Origin: Scenedesmus sp. PABB004
Lineage: Eukaryota
Assembly (NCBI GenBank): GCA_014905635.1
Contig: JABVCE010000031.1
Location: 62,001-126,000, forward strand
Direction: 5' to 3'
Length of the DNA stretch: 64,000 nt
Shown: piece after piece, positions 15,869 to 64,000 of the stretch
Layout of the letters: the number at the start of each line of letters is the position of its first letter
How positions within the stretch are numbered: the first letter of the stretch is position 1
The notes under the pieces: model-generated
Told to the model about the DNA's origin: nothing
What the model saw: the letters and a program-made list of their open reading frames with translations, nothing else
The model's database searches: none
Program-made: the position numbers and the translations under genes

Positions 15869-16088
15869 TCAGTAGTAGGCCAGGTTGAGCGCGAGGGGGA
15901 CGACAAAGGGCTCCATGACGAGGCGGGTGAGGAAGTAAAAGGCCACGCCGAGCGCGATGCTGACCGGCAGCGCGGGCAGCGCGCGCCGCGTGAGCGCGAG
16001 CAGCAGCAGCGTCACGCCCAGGCCGCTGATGACGGCGATGTAGGAGGAGAAGACTGCGGCGCGGGGGGGGGGGGTGGAAGGAGCGTGT

Positions 16089-16176
<88 letters not shown>

Positions 16177-18049
16177 ATGTGGGGAGAGGGGGGCGATGCT
16201 GGACGGGGCGGCGGCGGCGGCACGGCGGACCGCACCGCGCCGCACTCCACACACACCACACAGCCCCCTCACCCCACACGACCGCGGCGCACCGGTCATC
16301 ATGTCGTACATCGCCGCGCGGCCGACGAGCATGGAGTAAAAAATGAAGTCCCCCAGGCCCAGCTTGATGCCGTCCGGCAGGCCCAGCTCGCTGTCGCTGG
16401 CGTCCGCGTCGTCGCTGGCGGCGCCGGGGTGGTGCGGCGCGCCGCCGCCGCGCGCGCGTGCTGCGGCGGCGGCGCCGTCGAGCTCGGCGGCGCGCGGGCC
16501 GGGCGGCGGCACAGGGCTGCGCGCGGCGGCGCGGCGGCGGCGGCGGCGCGGGCAGCGGTGGCGTCGGCGGCCGCCCGCCCATGGCGGGCCCCGGGGAGGC
16601 GCGCCCGCGCGCCGCACCTGCTGCCGTCGCCGTCCTCGGCGGCCGCCAGCGCCGCGGCCGAGCTGCTGCCGCCCCCACTGCCGCGCAGCACCGGGGCCGC
16701 CGCGCCGTCCTCCTCGGCGCCCTCGCCCAGCGGGCGGGGCACGCCGCGCCCGCCGCTGCCGAGCCAGGCGCGCCCCGGCGGCCGCGCGCCGTGCGCGCCC
16801 TCCGCCTCCACGCCCTCCGCGAGCGGCACCGCGCCGCTCGAGCGCCGCTGCACCGCGCCGCCGCTGCCGAGCACCGCGCTCGCGGCTGCGGCGACGACCA
16901 CCGCGGCGGCGCCGCCGCCGCCGCCGGCCGCAAACTCGGCCGAGCTGCGCGGCTGGCCCGCGAGCAGCGCGGCGGTCGGGCTACCGGCGGGGCCGCCGCC
17001 GCCGCCGGGCCGCCGCCGCCCGCGCGCGCGGCGTCGGCGAGCACCGCCATCGGCGTGCCCGGCCCCTCGCCGGCACTGCCGCCGTCCCGCCGCCGCCGCC
17101 GCGGCGCTGCCACATGCCGCGCCGGTAGGGCCGCGTCGTGGGGCGGGACTCGTAGATGAGCGCTGGCAGGTCCTGCTGGCGCTCGATCGCGAGCTCAACC
17201 AGGATCTGCGCGCCAGCCACAGCGCGCGTGGGCGCGTGGGTGTGGAGGGGGGAGGGGGGCGTGTGGGGGCGTGTGGGCGCGCCGGCGCACACGCACGCCG
17301 CCCCGCGCCACCGCCTGCAGCCGCCGCCGCCGCGCGCGCTCGCGCGGCAGGCCCGCCCGGCAGCAGCACCGCGCGCGGCGCGGCCCCTCAGCCCTCAAGC
17401 CCCAAAACCCTGAACCGCCCACCCAGCCACCCACCTTGAGCGGCCCGCCCGGCAGCAGCACCGCGGCGAGGTCGTACAACGCCATTACGCCCAGCAGCAC
17501 CCAGGAGGTCCACTCGGGGATGTGGGTGAAGATGAAGGCCACGCAGATGCCCACCCACACCGTGTACGCCTGCTTCAGCAGCAGCGGCCCCGGCAGCACA
17601 AAGAGCGACAGCAGCCCGCCGACCTGCGCGCGCGAGCGCGGGGGAGGTGAGCGGCGCGGGGGGACAGAAAAGAGAGAGCCCCGGCGGCGTGGGCGCGGGG
17701 CGGCGCCGCGCGGCGGCGGCCTGGCCGCGCCCAAGAAACGCCCCGCGCGGGCGGCGGCCGGCCGGCCCCCGGTTGGCCGGCCAAAACCCCGACGCTCAAC
17801 TAAACTAAAACGCGCACCGAGAAGTTGAAGAGGATGACGGCGAGCGAGGGCAGGTCCAGGTGGAGCCCCACCACGCGCAGGAGCTGTATGGAGAGGGCGC
17901 CGGTGAAGAAGAAAAAAATGTTGAGCATCGCAAACCCCATGTAGGCGTGGATCACGCGGTAGCACTGAGGGGAGGGGGAGGAGAGGGGCGGCGCGGCGGC
18001 GGCGGCGGGGGCGTGTGCGGGTGCGTGTGAGTGTGCGCGCGCGTGTGTG

Positions 18050-18103
<54 letters not shown>

Positions 18104-18116
18104 CGCGTGCGCGTGC

Positions 18117-18184
<68 letters not shown>

Positions 18185-18803
18185 GGGGGAGGTGAGCAGG
18201 TGCGGCGGCGAGTGGGCAGCAAGCAACAACAAACGCGCAGACCCCTGGCACGGGCAGCTGCAGCTGCAGTCGGGCGCCGCCCCTGGGCAGCAGCGTCCCA
18301 GGGTTTAGGCAGGCGGGCAGGCGGGCACAAAACCGCGCGCGCACGCGGTACTTGAAGAGCAGGAAGAGCACAAACGTCATGCCCGCGATCACGGCCATGA
18401 ACACCACCGCGTTGAGCAGCGCGCCGCCGAGCTTGGTGCCCGCGCTGTCGCTGTCCTGCGAGCGGCACGCGGCGCGGCGCCGGCGGCGCGTGGCGGGTCG
18501 CCGGCGCGGCTGGCCGCGCGCTGCCCGCCGCGGCGCGTGGCGGCGCGCTGCGCAGCGGGGGGCGCGGCGCGGCGGTTGGAGGGCCCCCCGTCCTGCGGGC
18601 GCGCGCGCCTTTTCGTGGTAGGCAATCGTCGCGATCGCCACGCTGCTGCTGTCGGCGGCGCCGTCGGGGTTGAGCGTCTTGACCAGCACGACGACGAGGG
18701 CCATGCAGATGCTCACCGGCGCCACGATGCCCGTGACCTCGGCGCCCAGGTCGTCCAGCACGCTGGGCGCCGCCGCCGGCTCGCCGCCGCGCGGGCGCGC
18801 CAT
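15869..18803 (-). CDS. PSEN: Presenilin (gamma-secretase catalytic subunit); two apparent 1-nt deletions in the loop exon (near 17087 and 17008)
   Basis: [38 protein letters not shown] (YD), [25 protein letters not shown] (GxGD), [10 protein letters not shown] (PAL). GC donor at 18608. Confidence 0.93.
16085..16174. repeat. (TG)n microsatellite in presenilin intron
   Basis: Direct inspection. Confidence 0.9.
18012..18182. repeat. Compound (TG)n-(CG)n-(TG)n alternating purine-pyrimidine tract in presenilin intron
   Basis: Direct inspection. Confidence 0.9.
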
Positions 18804-19230
18804 CGCGCGCGGGCGGGCGGGCGGGCTGTCGCGCGCCGCGCCGCTGCTGCCGCCGCGCTGGCGGCGGTTGGCTCAGCACGCGCCGCCGTCGGCGCGCATG
18901 GCGGGCGGTCACGGACGCGGCAGGCGCGGAGGGGCGCAGGGGAAGAGAGCACCTGGCGGCCTGGCGGCGCCGGGGGCGGCGGCGGCGGGCGCTCGCAGCA
19001 CGAGCAGCAGACTGGCCGCGGCGTGTGGCGACGGTGCCTGCGCGGCCGTGCGTGGCGCTGGGAGCGGGCAGCCGGAAGCCCGACCGAGGTGTTGTCAGCG
19101 CGTCCGCGGGTCTGGCTGCGGCGAACCCCGCCGTCAGGGCGTCGCGCTGCTCGGCCAGCCGCCAGCGCAGCCGCCGCCACTCCCCTCGCTGCCCCCTCGC
19201 TGCCGCCGATCTCTCCCGAACACGCACGCC

Positions 19231-59198: not shown

Positions 59199-59203
59199 TT
59201 ACA
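59199..59203 (-). promoter_or_regulatory. Chlorophyte-type TGTAA polyadenylation signal for the Nnf1-like gene
   Basis: TGTAA on the minus strand about 45 nt after the stop codon at 59246. Confidence 0.55.
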
Positions 59204-59245
59204 AACGGCGACGCAATGAAATCAACGGAGCGCGCAGCCTCGCCG

Positions 59246-60413
59246 TCAGAGCTGCAGCGGCTCGCCCGCGCTGGGCGCGACCCAAGACTTGGCGGCGCGA
59301 TACACCTGCGGGCGCGGCAATGGTCGTCGCACGCGCGGGCGCGCAGCAGCCCGTGCGGGGCGGTGTGGCCCGGCAGGCCCCCGGCACGCACACACGGCCC
59401 CCCCACCTTGTCAACCTGGTCCGCCACGCTCGCGTCAAAGTCGCGCGCCAGCTCGGCCGCGGCGCGCTGCTTGGCCTCCAGCTCGGACGCGAGCGCCGCC
59501 TGCTGCGCCTGCACCTGCGGCGGCGCGCGGCGCGCGAGGGTCGGCGCGGCGGGCGCGAGCGGCCGCGCGCCAGCCGGCGCGCGCCGCCACGGCGCACCTC
59601 CGCCAGCATCTGATGCAGCACCTGCTGCTCCGCCTGCTTCGCCGCCATGCGCGCGGCCGCCTCGGCGGCCGAGGGCAGCGTCGCCGCGGCGGCGGCGGTG
59701 CTGCGGCGCGGGCGCGCGGCGCGCCGTCATCAAGCGGCGCGCGCTGCCGCTGCGCCATCGCCGCGCGCGTGCATGCGGCTGTGAGCGTGCACGCGGCCGC
59801 GCCGCGCACCTGGCTTTGCTGAGCAGGCCGCGCTCGAGCAGGAGCGCCTCCAGCTCCTCCAGCTGCTGCGGGAGCCCCACCTCGGCGCACGCCGCCTCCA
59901 TCTCGCTGACGCCCGCCTCCACAATGGACTCGCATTGCTGCGCGACAGGGGGCGGCGGCGGGGTGGCCGCGGGCGCGCGCTGGCCCCGCCCCCGGGCCCG
60001 TGCACGACGCGGCGCGGGCGCGCCGCAGGCAGAGACCGAGTCACGCGCCCGCCTGCCGCGCAGCTCGCACCCTCGCGAGCAGGCGGTGCAGGAGGCGCAG
60101 CTGCTTCTCCGACGCCCGGCCCTGGAAGGTGGCCAGGAATGTCTGCGGCACGCGCGGCGCCGGCGCGGTCGGTCGCCGCCGAGCCGACACAACAACGGCG
60201 CCACGCCCGCCGCCAACCGCCGCCGCCGCCGCCGCCCACCTGCTCGTCCAGGGCGCCCAGGCCGGCGTTGAGCATGTTGCGGAAGCCGTTGACGAGGCGC
60301 AGGTAGCGCAGGCTGGTCGCGGGCGGCGGCGGCGGGGTGCCGCGCGGCGCGTCGCCCTGCTGCTGCTGCTGCTCGCCGCCTGCGGGCGCGGGCTGCGCCG
60401 CGGGCTCGGCCAT
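59246..60413 (-). CDS. Nnf1/PMF1-like subunit of the MIS12 kinetochore complex, 6 exons
   Basis: RYLRLVNGFRNML..|TFLATF..LRLLHRLL|QCESIVEAGVSEMEAACAEVGLPQQLEELEALLLE followed by coiled coil. The pattern is recalled from the Nnf1 family. Confidence 0.6.
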
Positions 60414-60854
60414 GACCCCGATCGCGCGGTGTGCCACGCCTGGGCGCTGCCGCGGCAGCCTGGCGCGGTGTCGCGGGGTGCGGTCGGGCTCGCTCGCGCG
60501 GGCCGGGGAGCACGCGGGCTTCGGAGAGAGGTTCACGAGCGCTGCGAGCAGTCGCGGGGCGGCCGCGCGGGCCCGGGCGAGGGCGGCGCAGGACGTGACA
60601 GGTGCGCGCGGCGTTTGATTCGTGAACCGCCGCGGCGCCGCTGCCGCTCGCACGATTGCCCGATTGCCCTCCCCGTCCCCTTCCTGCCGCCACAGCGGTG
60701 CCCCCGGCCGCTCCCGGTCGCCCTCGCCGCGTGCCGCACACCCGCGCGCCGGCAGGCCGCGGCGCCGCGCGCCGCGCCGCGCCGCGCCGCCCGCCCGCCC
60801 GCCCTCAGCGGCCTGCGCCGCCGCCGCGCCCGCCGAGGGACCGCACCACTCACC

Positions 60855-63800
60855 ATGGGGAGCGCCCAGGCGCCGCTGGGCGGGCTGGCGCACCACCGCC
60901 AGCCCGCGCCGGCGCTGCGCGCGGCGGCGCCCGCAAACGTGCACGCCCGCCCCCTCCTGGGCGCCCTGGGCGGCGCCGTGGCCGGGGCCGGCCTGGCGTC
61001 GGGCCTGGAGGAGCTCAAACGCACCGCGGGTGCGCCGCGCGGGGCAGCCGCGCGGGCAGGCGCCCCCGCCGCGCGCCGCTGCTGCTGACGCCGCCCCGCC
61101 TCCCGCGCCGCGCCGCGCAGACACCTGGATGCAGGACCAGCAGAACAGCAAGCAGCGCGTCGAGTTCATGGCGCGCCGCGCGCCGCCGCGCCGCCACGCC
61201 GCAACGCCGCTGCTGCTGCGCGCGCAAGCTTACGCTGCACCGCGCCGCCGACTGACCCCGCGCCGCTGGCCCGCCGCGCAGAGCGCCAGGATCCAGGAGC
61301 TCGAGGCCGCCCGTGCGGCGCTGCTGGGGGACAACCAGGCGCTGCAGGAGGCCGTGCGCCTGCGCGACGCGCGCATACGAGAGGGTGCGCCGCCGCGCTG
61401 GGCGGGCGCGCCGCCGGCACCGCCGCCGCGCGCGCCCCGCGCCGCCGCGCGCGCCCGGCGCGCCGCGGTGCGACCCCCGCCGGCCGCTCCCGCTCCGTGC
61501 TCGCCGCGCAGACGACAAGGCGGTCGCGGCGCTGATGGACAAGCTGGCGCGCGTGGACGAGCAGCACCGCCTGCTCAGCCACAACGCCGAGCGCGCCATG
61601 CTCGAGGCCATGCGGCGTGAGCGGGGCGCGCGCGCGTGCGCGCGCGCTCGGGACACAACGAGGGTGCCGCCGCCGCTGCCGCCGCCGCCGCCGCCGTCAC
61701 GTGCGCGCGGCGCCGTCCTGCAAGGGCCCGCGCCCGCACCGCCCACCGCCGCCGCCGCCGCCGCCGCTGCGCGCGCAGTCGAGGGCTGCAGGCAGGGCAT
61801 GCAGGACGCGCTGGACGCCCAGGGGCTCATGTGCACGGTGAGGGCCAGCGCTCGCGCGCGCGCCGCCCGCACGCCGGGCCGGGGCTGCTTGCAGGAACGG
61901 CGCCGCGCGACCACGCCGCCGCCGCGCGAGCGCGCCGTCGCCGCCCCGGGTGCGAGCACCCGCTTGCAGGACGTCGAGACCAAGTTCAGCGCCCTGCAGG
62001 GCGCGCTCGCGGTTGCGCGGAGGGACCTGGACGCCGGTGCGCCGCCGCGCTCGCGCCCACGCTCCCGCGATCGCGCGCGCCGCGGGGGCCAGGGGGCGCG
62101 CGTGGACGCGGCGCGCGCCCTGCAAGCCCCCTCCCCCCAAACCGATCGAGCTGCGTGCGCCGCCGCCGCCCTGCAGGTGCCGCGCGCACCGCGCGCCTGG
62201 AGCTGGAGCTGGACAACGCGAGCGGCCGCGCGGCGGCCAAGGAGCGGGAGCTGGCCGAGGCGCTGTGCCTGAGCGTGAGCGCGCGCGCCGGCGCCCGGCT
62301 CGGGCCCGGCCGCGCCGCGCCGCGCCGCGCCGCGCCGCGCCGCGCCGCGCCGCGCCGCCCACTACGTGCACCCCCCCCCCCACACACACACACCCACAAA
62401 CACACGCACGCGCAGGCGCTGCTGAAGAGCAGCAGCGAGGGCACCATCGCCGCCCTGTCGGCGCAGCTCGCCACCGCGACCGCGGCGCGCGACGCCGCGG
62501 ACAAGGCGCTGGCCGAGCAGGCGGCCGCGCACGAGGCGCAGCTCAGCGCGGCGCGCGACGCGCACGCTGCCGCGCTCGACGACCAGCGGCTGCAGATCGG
62601 CGCCGCGCGCGGCCAGCTGCGGGACGCGGCCGCCCGCGAGGAGGCGCTGAGCGCTGAGCTGGGCGACGCGCGCGCGGCGGCCGCGCGCGGCGCGGCCGCC
62701 ATTGCCAGCCTGGAGGCGCAGGTCGCAGGTGCGCGGGAGGGGGCTGTGAGCCCTGTGCCCTGTGCCCTGCGAGCGCGCCGCGCGCGCCTCCCACACGCCG
62801 CTTGTCGTGCGCGTGCCTCCCGCGCCGCAGGCCTCACCGCCGCGCGCGACGTGGCCGCCGCCGCGCTGGCCACCAGCGAGGCGCGCGTGGCTGAGGCAGC
62901 CGCGTCGCTCGACGCCGCGGCCGCGCGCGCGGCCGGCCTGGAGGAGCTGCTCGCGGCGGCCAAGCAGGGCTGGGAGGCGGCCGAGGCCGCCGCGGCCGAG
63001 GCCAAGGCCGCGCAGCAGGCGGCCGAAGCGTGCGACGTGGGTGCCGCTGCCGCCGCGCTGCCGGCCGGCGCGGCTGTTGTCTGAGCCGCCGGCGCCGCCG
63101 CGCTGCTGCCGCCGCGTGCAGGGCAAGGCGGGCGAGGAGGCGGCCGCCCTGCGGGGGCAGCTGTGCACGCTGACGGACGCGCACGCGCGGCTGGCGGACG
63201 AGCTGCAGGCCAAGGAGGTGCGGCGGGCCCCCTGGCGCGCAGCTAGCTGCGCGGCCGCGCGCTGCGCTGGGTGCCGCGCCGGCGGCAGCTCGGACGACGC
63301 GCGCGCGGCCGCGCGCGCCGCGCCGCGCCCCGCAGGCGGCGCTCGCGGCCGCGCAGGACAGCGCCGGCGCGCAGGCGTCCGCGCAGGCCGAGGCGGCGGC
63401 GCTGCGGGGAGAGCTGGCCAGGGAGCGGGCCATGAACCGCAAGGCCACCGAGAGCGCCGCCAAGGTGCGTGCGTGCGCGCGCGCTCGCGCTCGCGTGGCG
63501 GTGGGCGCGGCGGCGGGCCCGGCGCTGAGCCCCGCCGACCGTGCCGCCGCCGCGGCGCGCAGCGCATGGATGAGATGATGGCGCAGGCGCGCAGGGCCCA
63601 GGCGGTGCGTGCGCGTTTGTGTGTTGTTTATGGGGGCTGAGCGCGCGCTGGTGCTGGGCCGCTGTGCCGCGGCGTGCTGGCGGCCGCGGCGCAGCGCGGC
63701 GCCGGCGCGGCGCGGGGGCTGCCTCCAGGTGCGCCGACCCGCCGGCTGCGCCGCCCGCAGCTGGAGAAGGAGCTCGCGGCCGCCCAGGAGCGGCTCGCGG

Positions 63801-64000
63801 CCGCCGAGCAGGCGGCGGCCGGCTGCGCCGCTGCGGCGGGCGCGGAGGGCGCCGAGGCGGCCGCGCTGCTGGCGGGCGTGGTGGCGGAGCTGGAGAGCGC
63901 GCACGCGGCGCGGCAGCAGGACAGCGCGGCGCTCTGCAGGTGCGAGCGGCGGCGCCGCGGGCGCGCAGGGGACGCTGGCGCCCCGCCGGCACGGGCCGCG
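60855..64000 (+). CDS. Long coiled-coil protein with ZYP1-like N-terminus (synaptonemal complex transverse filament); 3' end outside the window
   Basis: GLEELKRTA|DTWMQDQQNSKQRVEFM|SARIQELE..ARIRE|DDKAVAALMDKL, followed by many Ala/Glu-rich coiled-coil exons. Confidence 0.6.

What the first reader, a model, noticed from the sequence alone, without database searches (positions are those of the whole stretch)
60855..61620. ZYP1-like synaptonemal complex transverse-filament gene: possible evidence for meiosis
The spliced N-terminus reads LEELKRTADTWMQDQ-(43 aa)-EDDKAVAALMDKL. It aligns without gaps to the conserved N-terminal block of plant ZYP1 as I recall it, FSNLKLTAEKLVKDQ-(43 aa)-EDEKLWRGLESKF, with further in-register identities (E, AL, Q, R), and a long coiled coil follows. 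The register only holds if the in-frame 111-nt GC-AG intron at 61171-61281 is removed. Transverse-filament proteins diverge quickly and are hard to detect in algae, so a true ortholog would support cryptic sex in a group where it is rarely seen. The reference sequence is from memory.
Basis: inference. Interest (0 to 1): 0.7.

Follow-up and report, generated by a model that had tools for sequence, protein, structure and literature searches.

The report
Green-algal ZYP1 chromosome-zipper gene
This green alga carries an intact-looking counterpart of the plant protein ZYP1, which zips paired chromosomes together in meiosis; the protein is too diverged for the standard searches tried, but four of its introns sit exactly where the plant gene has them.

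Summary
ATG 60855 opens an 18-exon gene that ends about 2 kb beyond the window and encodes 1026 aa: short head, rod of about 560 aa, basic disordered tail. The recalled ZYP1 motifs and the 43-aa spacing match the printed Arabidopsis sequence. Sequence alone is weak: 16/71 identities, and only 3.8-5.5 bits against an angiosperm ZYP1 profile. Gene structure decides it. The first four coding introns of plant ZYP1 (offsets 0, 50, 258, 384 nt; phases 1, 0, 1, 1) recur exactly in the alga, including the GC-AG intron. Simulated chance is about 1e-4 over any register, and that same register ranks 1 of 956 by sequence. DMC1-like, MND1, HOP2, two SPO11/TOP6A and HAP2 loci are in the genome. Verdict: a chlorophyte ZYP1 ortholog, a new member of a known family. 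ZYP1 is already reported in Chlamydomonas and Volvox, and core meiotic genes in Scenedesmaceae. Splicing, expression and function were not tested. The scan's earlier notes held no ZYP1 finding.

The parts
60855..61029 (+). Exon 1: ATG, Gly/Ala/Pro-rich head (aa 1-50) and start of the conserved N-terminal helix (L54, K55, T57, A58)
61030..61120 (+). Intron 1 (GT-AG, phase 1); same position and phase as plant ZYP1 coding intron 1
61121..61170 (+). Exon 2, 50 nt; same length as plant exon 2
61171..61281 (+). Intron 2 (GC-AG, 111 nt, in frame, phase 0); same position as a GT-AG intron in plants
61282..61384 (+). Exon 3, 103 nt; with exon 4 (105 nt) it equals the 208-nt plant exon 3. Intron 3 (61385-61511) is absent from the plant genes examined
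61512..61616 (+). Exon 4, carrying the second motif (D110, K112, L117, K120)
61617..61778 (+). Intron 4 (GT-AG, phase 1); same position as plant intron 3
61779..62036 (+). Exons 5 (61779-61837) and 6 (61970-62036): 59+67 = 126 nt, the length of plant exon 4. Intron 5 is absent from the plant genes examined
62037..62176 (+). Intron 6 (GT-AG, phase 1); same position as plant intron 4 in the ungapped register
62177..63939 (+). Exons 7-13 (62177-62274, 62416-62728, 62831-63036, 63122-63217, 63336-63464, 63563-63604, 63761-63939): Ala-rich coiled-coil rod. Intron 7 lies 1 nt from plant intron 5 (not counted as shared)
63940..64000 (+). Start of intron 13. The gene continues beyond the window in L003: exons 14-18 at window-equivalent 64043-64217, 64316-65007, 65123-65285, 65429-65679, 65819-65997, encoding the end of the rod and a 416-aa basic disordered tail

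Best explanation
The gene is the chlorophyte ortholog of plant ZYP1/ZEP1, the transverse filament of the synaptonemal complex. Shown here: a 1026-aa reading frame with coding-like codon use in every exon, head-rod-tail architecture, a conserved N-terminal helix, four introns shared with plants, and other meiotic genes in the genome. Inferred from plant and mouse work: the rods form parallel coiled coils; the conserved helix at aa 51-65 meets its partner from the opposite homolog head-to-head at the midline; the basic tail anchors to the chromosome axis; the zipper sets homolog spacing and imposes crossover interference during meiosis.
For: Plant intron offsets 0/50/258/384 nt with phases 1/0/1/1 recur exactly in the alga. 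The same exon sizes are present in grass and eudicot loci: 50 nt in 23 of 38 matches, 208 nt in 29 of 38, 126 nt in 28 of 38 (redundant loci; searched for these lengths). The intron-defined register is independently the best ungapped match to a 119-sequence plant profile: rank 1 of 956; 88 of 20,000 heptad-preserving shuffles and 14 of 1,000 best-of-register shuffles reach it. All 14 identities to the plant consensus fall in the 49 columns that are at least 90% conserved, none in the other 22. Rod periodicity and basic tail, pI 10.4. Meiotic genes in G000: MND1 (26), HOP2 (31), two TP6A/SPO11 loci (32), RAD51 plus a DMC1-like locus (65, 70), HAP2 (85). ZYP1 orientation: PMC8000504 passage. Conserved head-to-head tip shared by SYCP1 and Arabidopsis ZYP1: PMC10588951 passages.
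Against: hmmsearch with angiosperm profiles gives 3.8 and 5.5 bits for the N-terminal block, and a profile of the plant mid-rod matches the same algal stretch at 8.9 bits in another register. BLASTP and phmmer of the algal N-terminus against 132 plant proteins give no convincing hit. A grass ZYP1 query did not find the locus in G000. No algal homolog was retrieved, so there is no bridging profile and no reciprocal best hit. Exon 3 fits the ungapped register poorly (rank 135 of 587), and a +21 shift scores as well as the ungapped register for plant exons 4-5, so the fourth shared intron is the least secure; 3 or more shared introns in a free register arise in about 1% of simulations. No later intron is shared exactly. 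The plant terminal PYADDPYAFD motif is absent; only a DIF resemblance remains. HORMA and SPO22 searches were blank (the tool flags such blanks as no proof of absence). The gene model is my own and has no RNA support.
Confidence: 0.9

Rival explanations
1. A ZYP1-derived gene that no longer works as a meiotic transverse filament: a diverged paralog, or a protein repurposed for a vegetative structural role.
For: Strong divergence, an Ala-rich rod about 110 aa shorter than in the grass protein, and loss of the plant terminal motif. Axis partner HOP1/ASY1 and ZIP4 were not detected (weak searches). No expression data.
Against: The retained residues are those conserved in plants at the head-to-head tip. 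The reading frame is intact with GC3 of 96%. DMC1-like, MND1, HOP2, SPO11-type and HAP2 loci are present. No better ZYP1 candidate appeared (an insensitive search).
Confidence: 0.06
2. An unrelated long coiled-coil protein whose likeness to ZYP1 is heptad noise and whose intron matches are chance.
For: Non-significant HMMER and BLAST scores. Generic coiled-coil proteins score high against ZYP1 in feature space. An earlier scan note describes a by-eye SYCP1 likeness on other DNA that failed.
Against: No other family matched: Pfam on 11 pieces gave nothing near a cut-off; the only phmmer hit was a repetitive oomycete protein. Genuine plant ZYP1 also has no Pfam match, so a blank is normal for this family.
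Confidence: 0.03
3. The 111-nt GC-AG segment is coding (retained), so the register and the motif spacing are an artefact of the model.
For: In frame, no stop, non-canonical donor scoring below the 16 GT donors.
Against: Intron-like codon score, branch-like motifs and GCAG acceptor. Exact match to a plant GT-AG intron; introns 1 and 4 lie 258 spliced nt apart, as in plants, only if it is removed.
Confidence: 0.02

Closest known systems
Plant ZYP1/ZEP1 (Arabidopsis ZYP1A Q9LME2 and ZYP1B P61430; rice ZEP1)
   Same: Head-rod-basic tail layout; conserved N-terminal helix in an ungapped register; first four coding introns identical in position and phase.
   Different: About 23% identity in the best block and none detectable further on; two extra introns in the block; rod about 560 vs about 670 aa and Ala-rich instead of Glu/Lys-rich; tail 416 vs about 160 aa; terminal PYADDPYAFD motif absent.
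Chlamydomonas XP_001694664.2 and Volvox XP_002948362.1, listed as ZYP1 in PMC9957857 supplementary table 2
   Same: The only chlorophyte ZYP1 calls in that survey (2 of 14 chlorophyte rows); expected nearest known orthologs.
   Different: Their sequences could not be fetched, so they were not compared. Chromochloris zofingiensis was 'not detected' in the same table.
Mammalian SYCP1 (Pfam SCP-1; alpha-N-tip/alpha-N-end)
   Same: Same role in the complex; PMC10588951 reports its head-to-head motif as conserved in Arabidopsis ZYP1.
   Different: No match to SCP-1 or to solved SYCP1 chains, neither for the algal exons nor for real plant ZYP1. That algal L54 equals the essential human L109 rests on a recalled alignment and was not checked.

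Membership tests
ZYP1/ZEP1 transverse filament | Short head, long central coiled coil, disordered C-terminal tail | tested here: met
   Heptad power 0.53 vs 0.16 +/- 0.04 in aa 51-610 (1 Pro); none in aa 611-1026 (42 Pro)
ZYP1/ZEP1 transverse filament | Conserved N-terminal helix motif in register | tested here: met
   Rank 1 of 956 registers; first block rank 1 of 596; 14 of 14 identities in conserved columns
ZYP1/ZEP1 transverse filament | Significant profile (HMM) match to the family | tested here: inconclusive
   3.8-5.5 bits with an angiosperm-only profile, not significant; only one bryophyte and no algal member could be fetched to broaden it
ZYP1/ZEP1 transverse filament | Shared gene structure (intron positions and phases) | tested here: met
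   4 of the first 4 plant coding introns shared exactly; the 5th is 1 nt off; the next 3 examined are not shared
ZYP1/ZEP1 transverse filament | Basic C-terminal tail | tested here: met
   pI 10.4 (last 140 aa 11.9) vs 9.5 in three plant tails; S/TP sites 2 vs 0-5
ZYP1/ZEP1 transverse filament | Land-plant terminal motif (DLF...PYADDPYAFD) | tested here: inconclusive
   112 of 132 plant proteins have [DE][LI]F near the end; the alga ends with DIF plus five residues and lacks the rest. Whether algal ZYP1s keep the motif is unknown
ZYP1/ZEP1 transverse filament | Reciprocal best hit | tested here: inconclusive
   Exon-wise genome search too insensitive (best E 4.5 elsewhere); no proteome available
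ZYP1/ZEP1 transverse filament | Meiosis-specific expression and localisation in the central region | not testable with these tools
   No RNA run was listed; needs cytology
SYCP1 (Pfam SCP-1) | Match to the SCP-1 profile or to solved SYCP1 chains | tested here: not met
   No hit for algal exons; real plant ZYP1 also fails; not filed under SYCP1

The most novel reading that the evidence does not exclude
ZYP1 is general in chlorophytes and most 'not detected' calls are search failures. The 50/208/126-nt exon signature dates from the green-plant ancestor and can find the gene where BLAST and HMMER fail. This lineage (probably Sphaeropleales) would then build a synaptonemal complex from a rod about 110 residues shorter than in grasses (roughly 83 vs 99 nm), possibly without SCEP3, which was not found outside streptophytes: a narrower, minimal green-lineage complex in algae whose meiosis is rarely seen.
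Probability: 0.35. Interest if true: 0.65.

Novelty: new member of a known kind. Interest (0 to 1): 0.45.

Why it matters
Transverse filaments are among the hardest meiotic proteins to trace: a dedicated survey found ZYP1 in only 2 of 14 chlorophytes. This case shows an ortholog invisible to the BLAST and HMMER searches tried yet marked by intron positions, which gives a cheap way to re-test reported absences in algae. It adds the synapsis component to the case for meiosis in this alga and narrows the residues that matter at the head-to-head tip to about a dozen shared by alga, liverwort and flowering plants. It does not overturn anything: sex in such algae was already inferred from other genes.

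Tried and rejected
RNA evidence: no RNA holder was listed. Searches with the only single-frame piece of the block (exon 2 + intron 2 + exon 3): none at E<=1 among 4471 candidates; one spurious repetitive oomycete protein in the phmmer scan; nothing at 0.9 or more in the Atlas. Pfam on 11 pieces: nothing near a cut-off. A length-restricted profile search for algal ZYP1 returned 19 angiosperm models and one liverwort. PDB searches with plant ZYP1 did not reach SYCP1. The Atlas search with plant ZYP1 gave generic coiled-coil clusters. HORMA and SPO22 searches in G000 were blank and uninformative. An eye-catching exact ETKFS match to Arabidopsis needs a +14 shift that the plant profile scores below the ungapped register (-11.6 vs 4.3), so I treat it as chance. 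The S/TP-rich tail criterion was rejected because plant tails do not meet it. Three plant gene models annotated as fused to another domain (P0010, P0036, P0127) were dropped before alignments and counts. A splice-site listing of RAD51 was not analysed, so the genome-wide GC-AG rate is unknown. No structure or complex was predicted, since the spliced protein is not a single reading frame of the window. A paper search could not confirm the organism of PDB entry 8cmo.

Full report
Setting. The window is 75-84% GC and intron-rich and lies at G000:C26:62001-126000 in a 40-Mb assembly. Its nuclear PsaD matches green-algal chains best; the top single-domain hit is 8cmo at 230 bits, against 207-210 for the next chains. 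That these entries are chlorophytes and that 8cmo is a Coelastrella (Sphaeropleales) structure is my recollection; a paper search did not confirm it. The order is therefore probable, not shown.

Observation. The first four exons splice to the two quoted motifs with 43 aa between them. Using the neighbouring genome stretch L003 I built an 18-exon model from ATG 60855 to a TGA at window-equivalent 65995-65997: 1026 aa, 16 GT-AG introns and one GC-AG intron of 85-162 nt. A codon model trained on the gene itself scores all 18 exons positive and all 17 introns negative; intron 2 scores -24.8 bits, and its GC donor is the best candidate in the region, though weaker than the 16 training donors. Residues 51-610 are heptad-periodic (0 of 500 shuffles reach the value) with one proline; residues 611-1026 are Pro/Gly-rich, aperiodic and basic. 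Some later boundaries (for example the donors of introns 7 and 9) have alternatives, and no RNA run was listed.

Reference sequences. A scan for one plant motif in metagenome contigs returned 36 loci with 38 matches, all translating to ZYP1: spliced grass transcripts and genomic copies from grasses and eudicots. L016 matches Arabidopsis ZYP1B by eye over residues 36-235. A search with the grass protein gave 382 homologs, of which 120 were listed, all angiosperm by the names shown. I aligned 119 sequences: 118 of the 120 (two fused models dropped) plus the query.

Sequence evidence is weak by standard tools. hmmsearch gave 3.8 bits (156-position profile) and 5.5 bits (101 positions) for the spliced block, and below zero with intron 2 retained; a mid-rod profile hit the same stretch at 8.9 bits in another register. 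BLASTP and phmmer against 132 plant proteins gave no convincing hit. The grass N-terminus did not find the locus in G000. An ungapped profile scan is more favourable: the proposed register ranks 1 of 956 (29.3 vs 8.1 for the next); 1 of 20,000 plain shuffles, 88 of 20,000 heptad-preserving shuffles and 14 of 1,000 best-of-121-register shuffles reach it. By segment it ranks 1 of 596, 135 of 587, 8 of 586, 8 of 579 and 42 of 588. All 14 identities to the plant consensus lie in the 49 of 71 columns that are at least 90% conserved (hypergeometric about 0.003, computed by hand), and 12 of them are also kept in the liverwort P0140.

Gene structure is the decisive evidence. The first exons in L016 are 145, 50, 208, 126 and 99 nt, placing introns at 0, 50, 258, 384 and 483 nt from intron 1 with phases 1, 0, 1, 1, 1. 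The algal gene has introns at 0, 50, 153, 258, 317, 384 and 482 with phases 1, 0, 1, 1, 0, 1, 0. Four match exactly, two are extra in the alga, the fifth plant intron is 1 nt off, and the three later plant introns examined are not shared. The same exon sizes occur across the plant loci: 50 nt in 23 of 38 matches, 126 nt in 28 of 38, and 208 nt bounded by AG and GT in 29 of 38 (of the other nine, six look spliced, two are cut by a contig end, one has another acceptor). These loci are redundant and I searched for those lengths. In 300,000 simulated 17-intron genes per model, four or more shared introns in any in-frame register occurred at 7e-5 and 9e-5; three or more at about 1%. The match at intron 2 also supports the GC-AG intron, which is GT-AG in all 23 plant matches found. 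The fourth match is the least secure, because a +21 shift fits that region about as well.

Meiotic context. Six of eight family searches for meiotic or sexual genes in G000 gave matches: MND1, HOP2 (31), two TP6A/SPO11 loci not typed further (32), HAP2 (85), and two recombinase loci from one search (65), one RAD51 and one DMC1-like (2 of 4 exons tested favour DMC1, the last by 50.3 vs 31.9 bits; the other two slightly favour RAD51). Correction of the count: five of seven searches matched; HORMA (27) and SPO22 (66) were blank, and the HORMA search also missed the MAD2-type gene any eukaryote should have, so it is uninformative.

Mechanism. Shown: the anatomy above. Inferred from other species: in Arabidopsis the ZYP1 N-terminus lies at the midline and the C-terminus towards the axes (PMC8000504, passage); the complex imposes crossover interference (title and abstract start in the listing). 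In mouse the conserved tip of SYCP1 assembles head-to-head, one buried leucine is essential, and the motif extends to Arabidopsis ZYP1 (PMC10588951, passages). The best-conserved algal stretch (aa 51-65) is the start of the rod, so I infer the same assembly. Equating algal L54 with that leucine rests on a recalled alignment. SCEP3 binds the ZYP1 N-terminal region but was not found outside Streptophyta (PMC12283363, passages). The rod is about 560 aa against about 670 in the grass protein; at 0.1485 nm per residue (textbook value) that is about 83 against 99 nm.

Comparison with what is known. PMC9957857 (passages and supplementary table 2, part 1 of 3 read) reports ZYP1 in at least one representative of each major green-plant lineage; among 14 chlorophyte rows only Chlamydomonas and Volvox have an entry, and Chromochloris is 'not detected'. 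PMC4132317 (passages) found only low similarity of plant and fungal central-region proteins to chlorophyte proteomes. PMC13315243 (passages; supplements not read, and its meiotic-gene table may bear on ZYP1) tentatively concludes that all 38 Scenedesmaceae strains have sex. PMC12711579 (passages) did not mention algae. Eight full-text searches showed no report of a Sphaeropleales ZYP1 or of these shared introns; the library lacks most subscription papers, and public annotations may already hold such proteins. The scan's own notes had no ZYP1 finding.

Verdict. A real, intact-looking gene and very probably the ZYP1 ortholog (0.9): a new member of a known family, interest 0.45. The value lies in the intron-based evidence and its use as a search key, more than in the evidence for sex.

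Noticed in passing
window about 59200-60414, minus strand: A small multi-exon coiled-coil gene starts head-to-head about 440 bp from the ZYP1-like ATG, suggesting a shared promoter. By eye it recalls the kinetochore subunit NNF1/PMF1 (recalled); three pieces gave no Pfam hit and my exon boundaries were not refined.
   Followed up: partly
window 62275 (intron 7): Intron 7 lies one nucleotide upstream of plant intron 5 (482 vs 483 nt; phase 0 vs 1), a possible one-base intron slide or a coincidence.
   Followed up: no
L003 7829-9830 (beyond the window): A 231-bp unit repeated 8.7 times at 97% identity. It appears to be an exon-plus-intron unit of a minus-strand gene encoding an Ala-rich helical repeat, convergent with the ZYP1-like gene.
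   Followed up: no
window 1938-54643: Ordinary neighbours by Pfam on 96 long frames: RRM, MORN, presenilin (about 15900-18900), WW, GNAT acetyltransferase, HA2 helicase, Orn/Lys/Arg decarboxylase, Bax inhibitor-1 and a protein kinase. No other meiotic gene among them.
   Followed up: no
G000 C5:972149-974102; C76:98050-99557; C46:1601544; C29:164563; C67:1399366; C2:60904: DMC1-like, HAP2, MND1, HOP2 and two SPO11/TOP6A loci elsewhere in the genome; gene integrity was not checked.
   Followed up: partly
L015/L016: One metagenome contig holds both Arabidopsis-type ZYP1 copies, one on each strand; host-plant contigs in metagenomes are a usable source of plant gene structures.
   Followed up: yes
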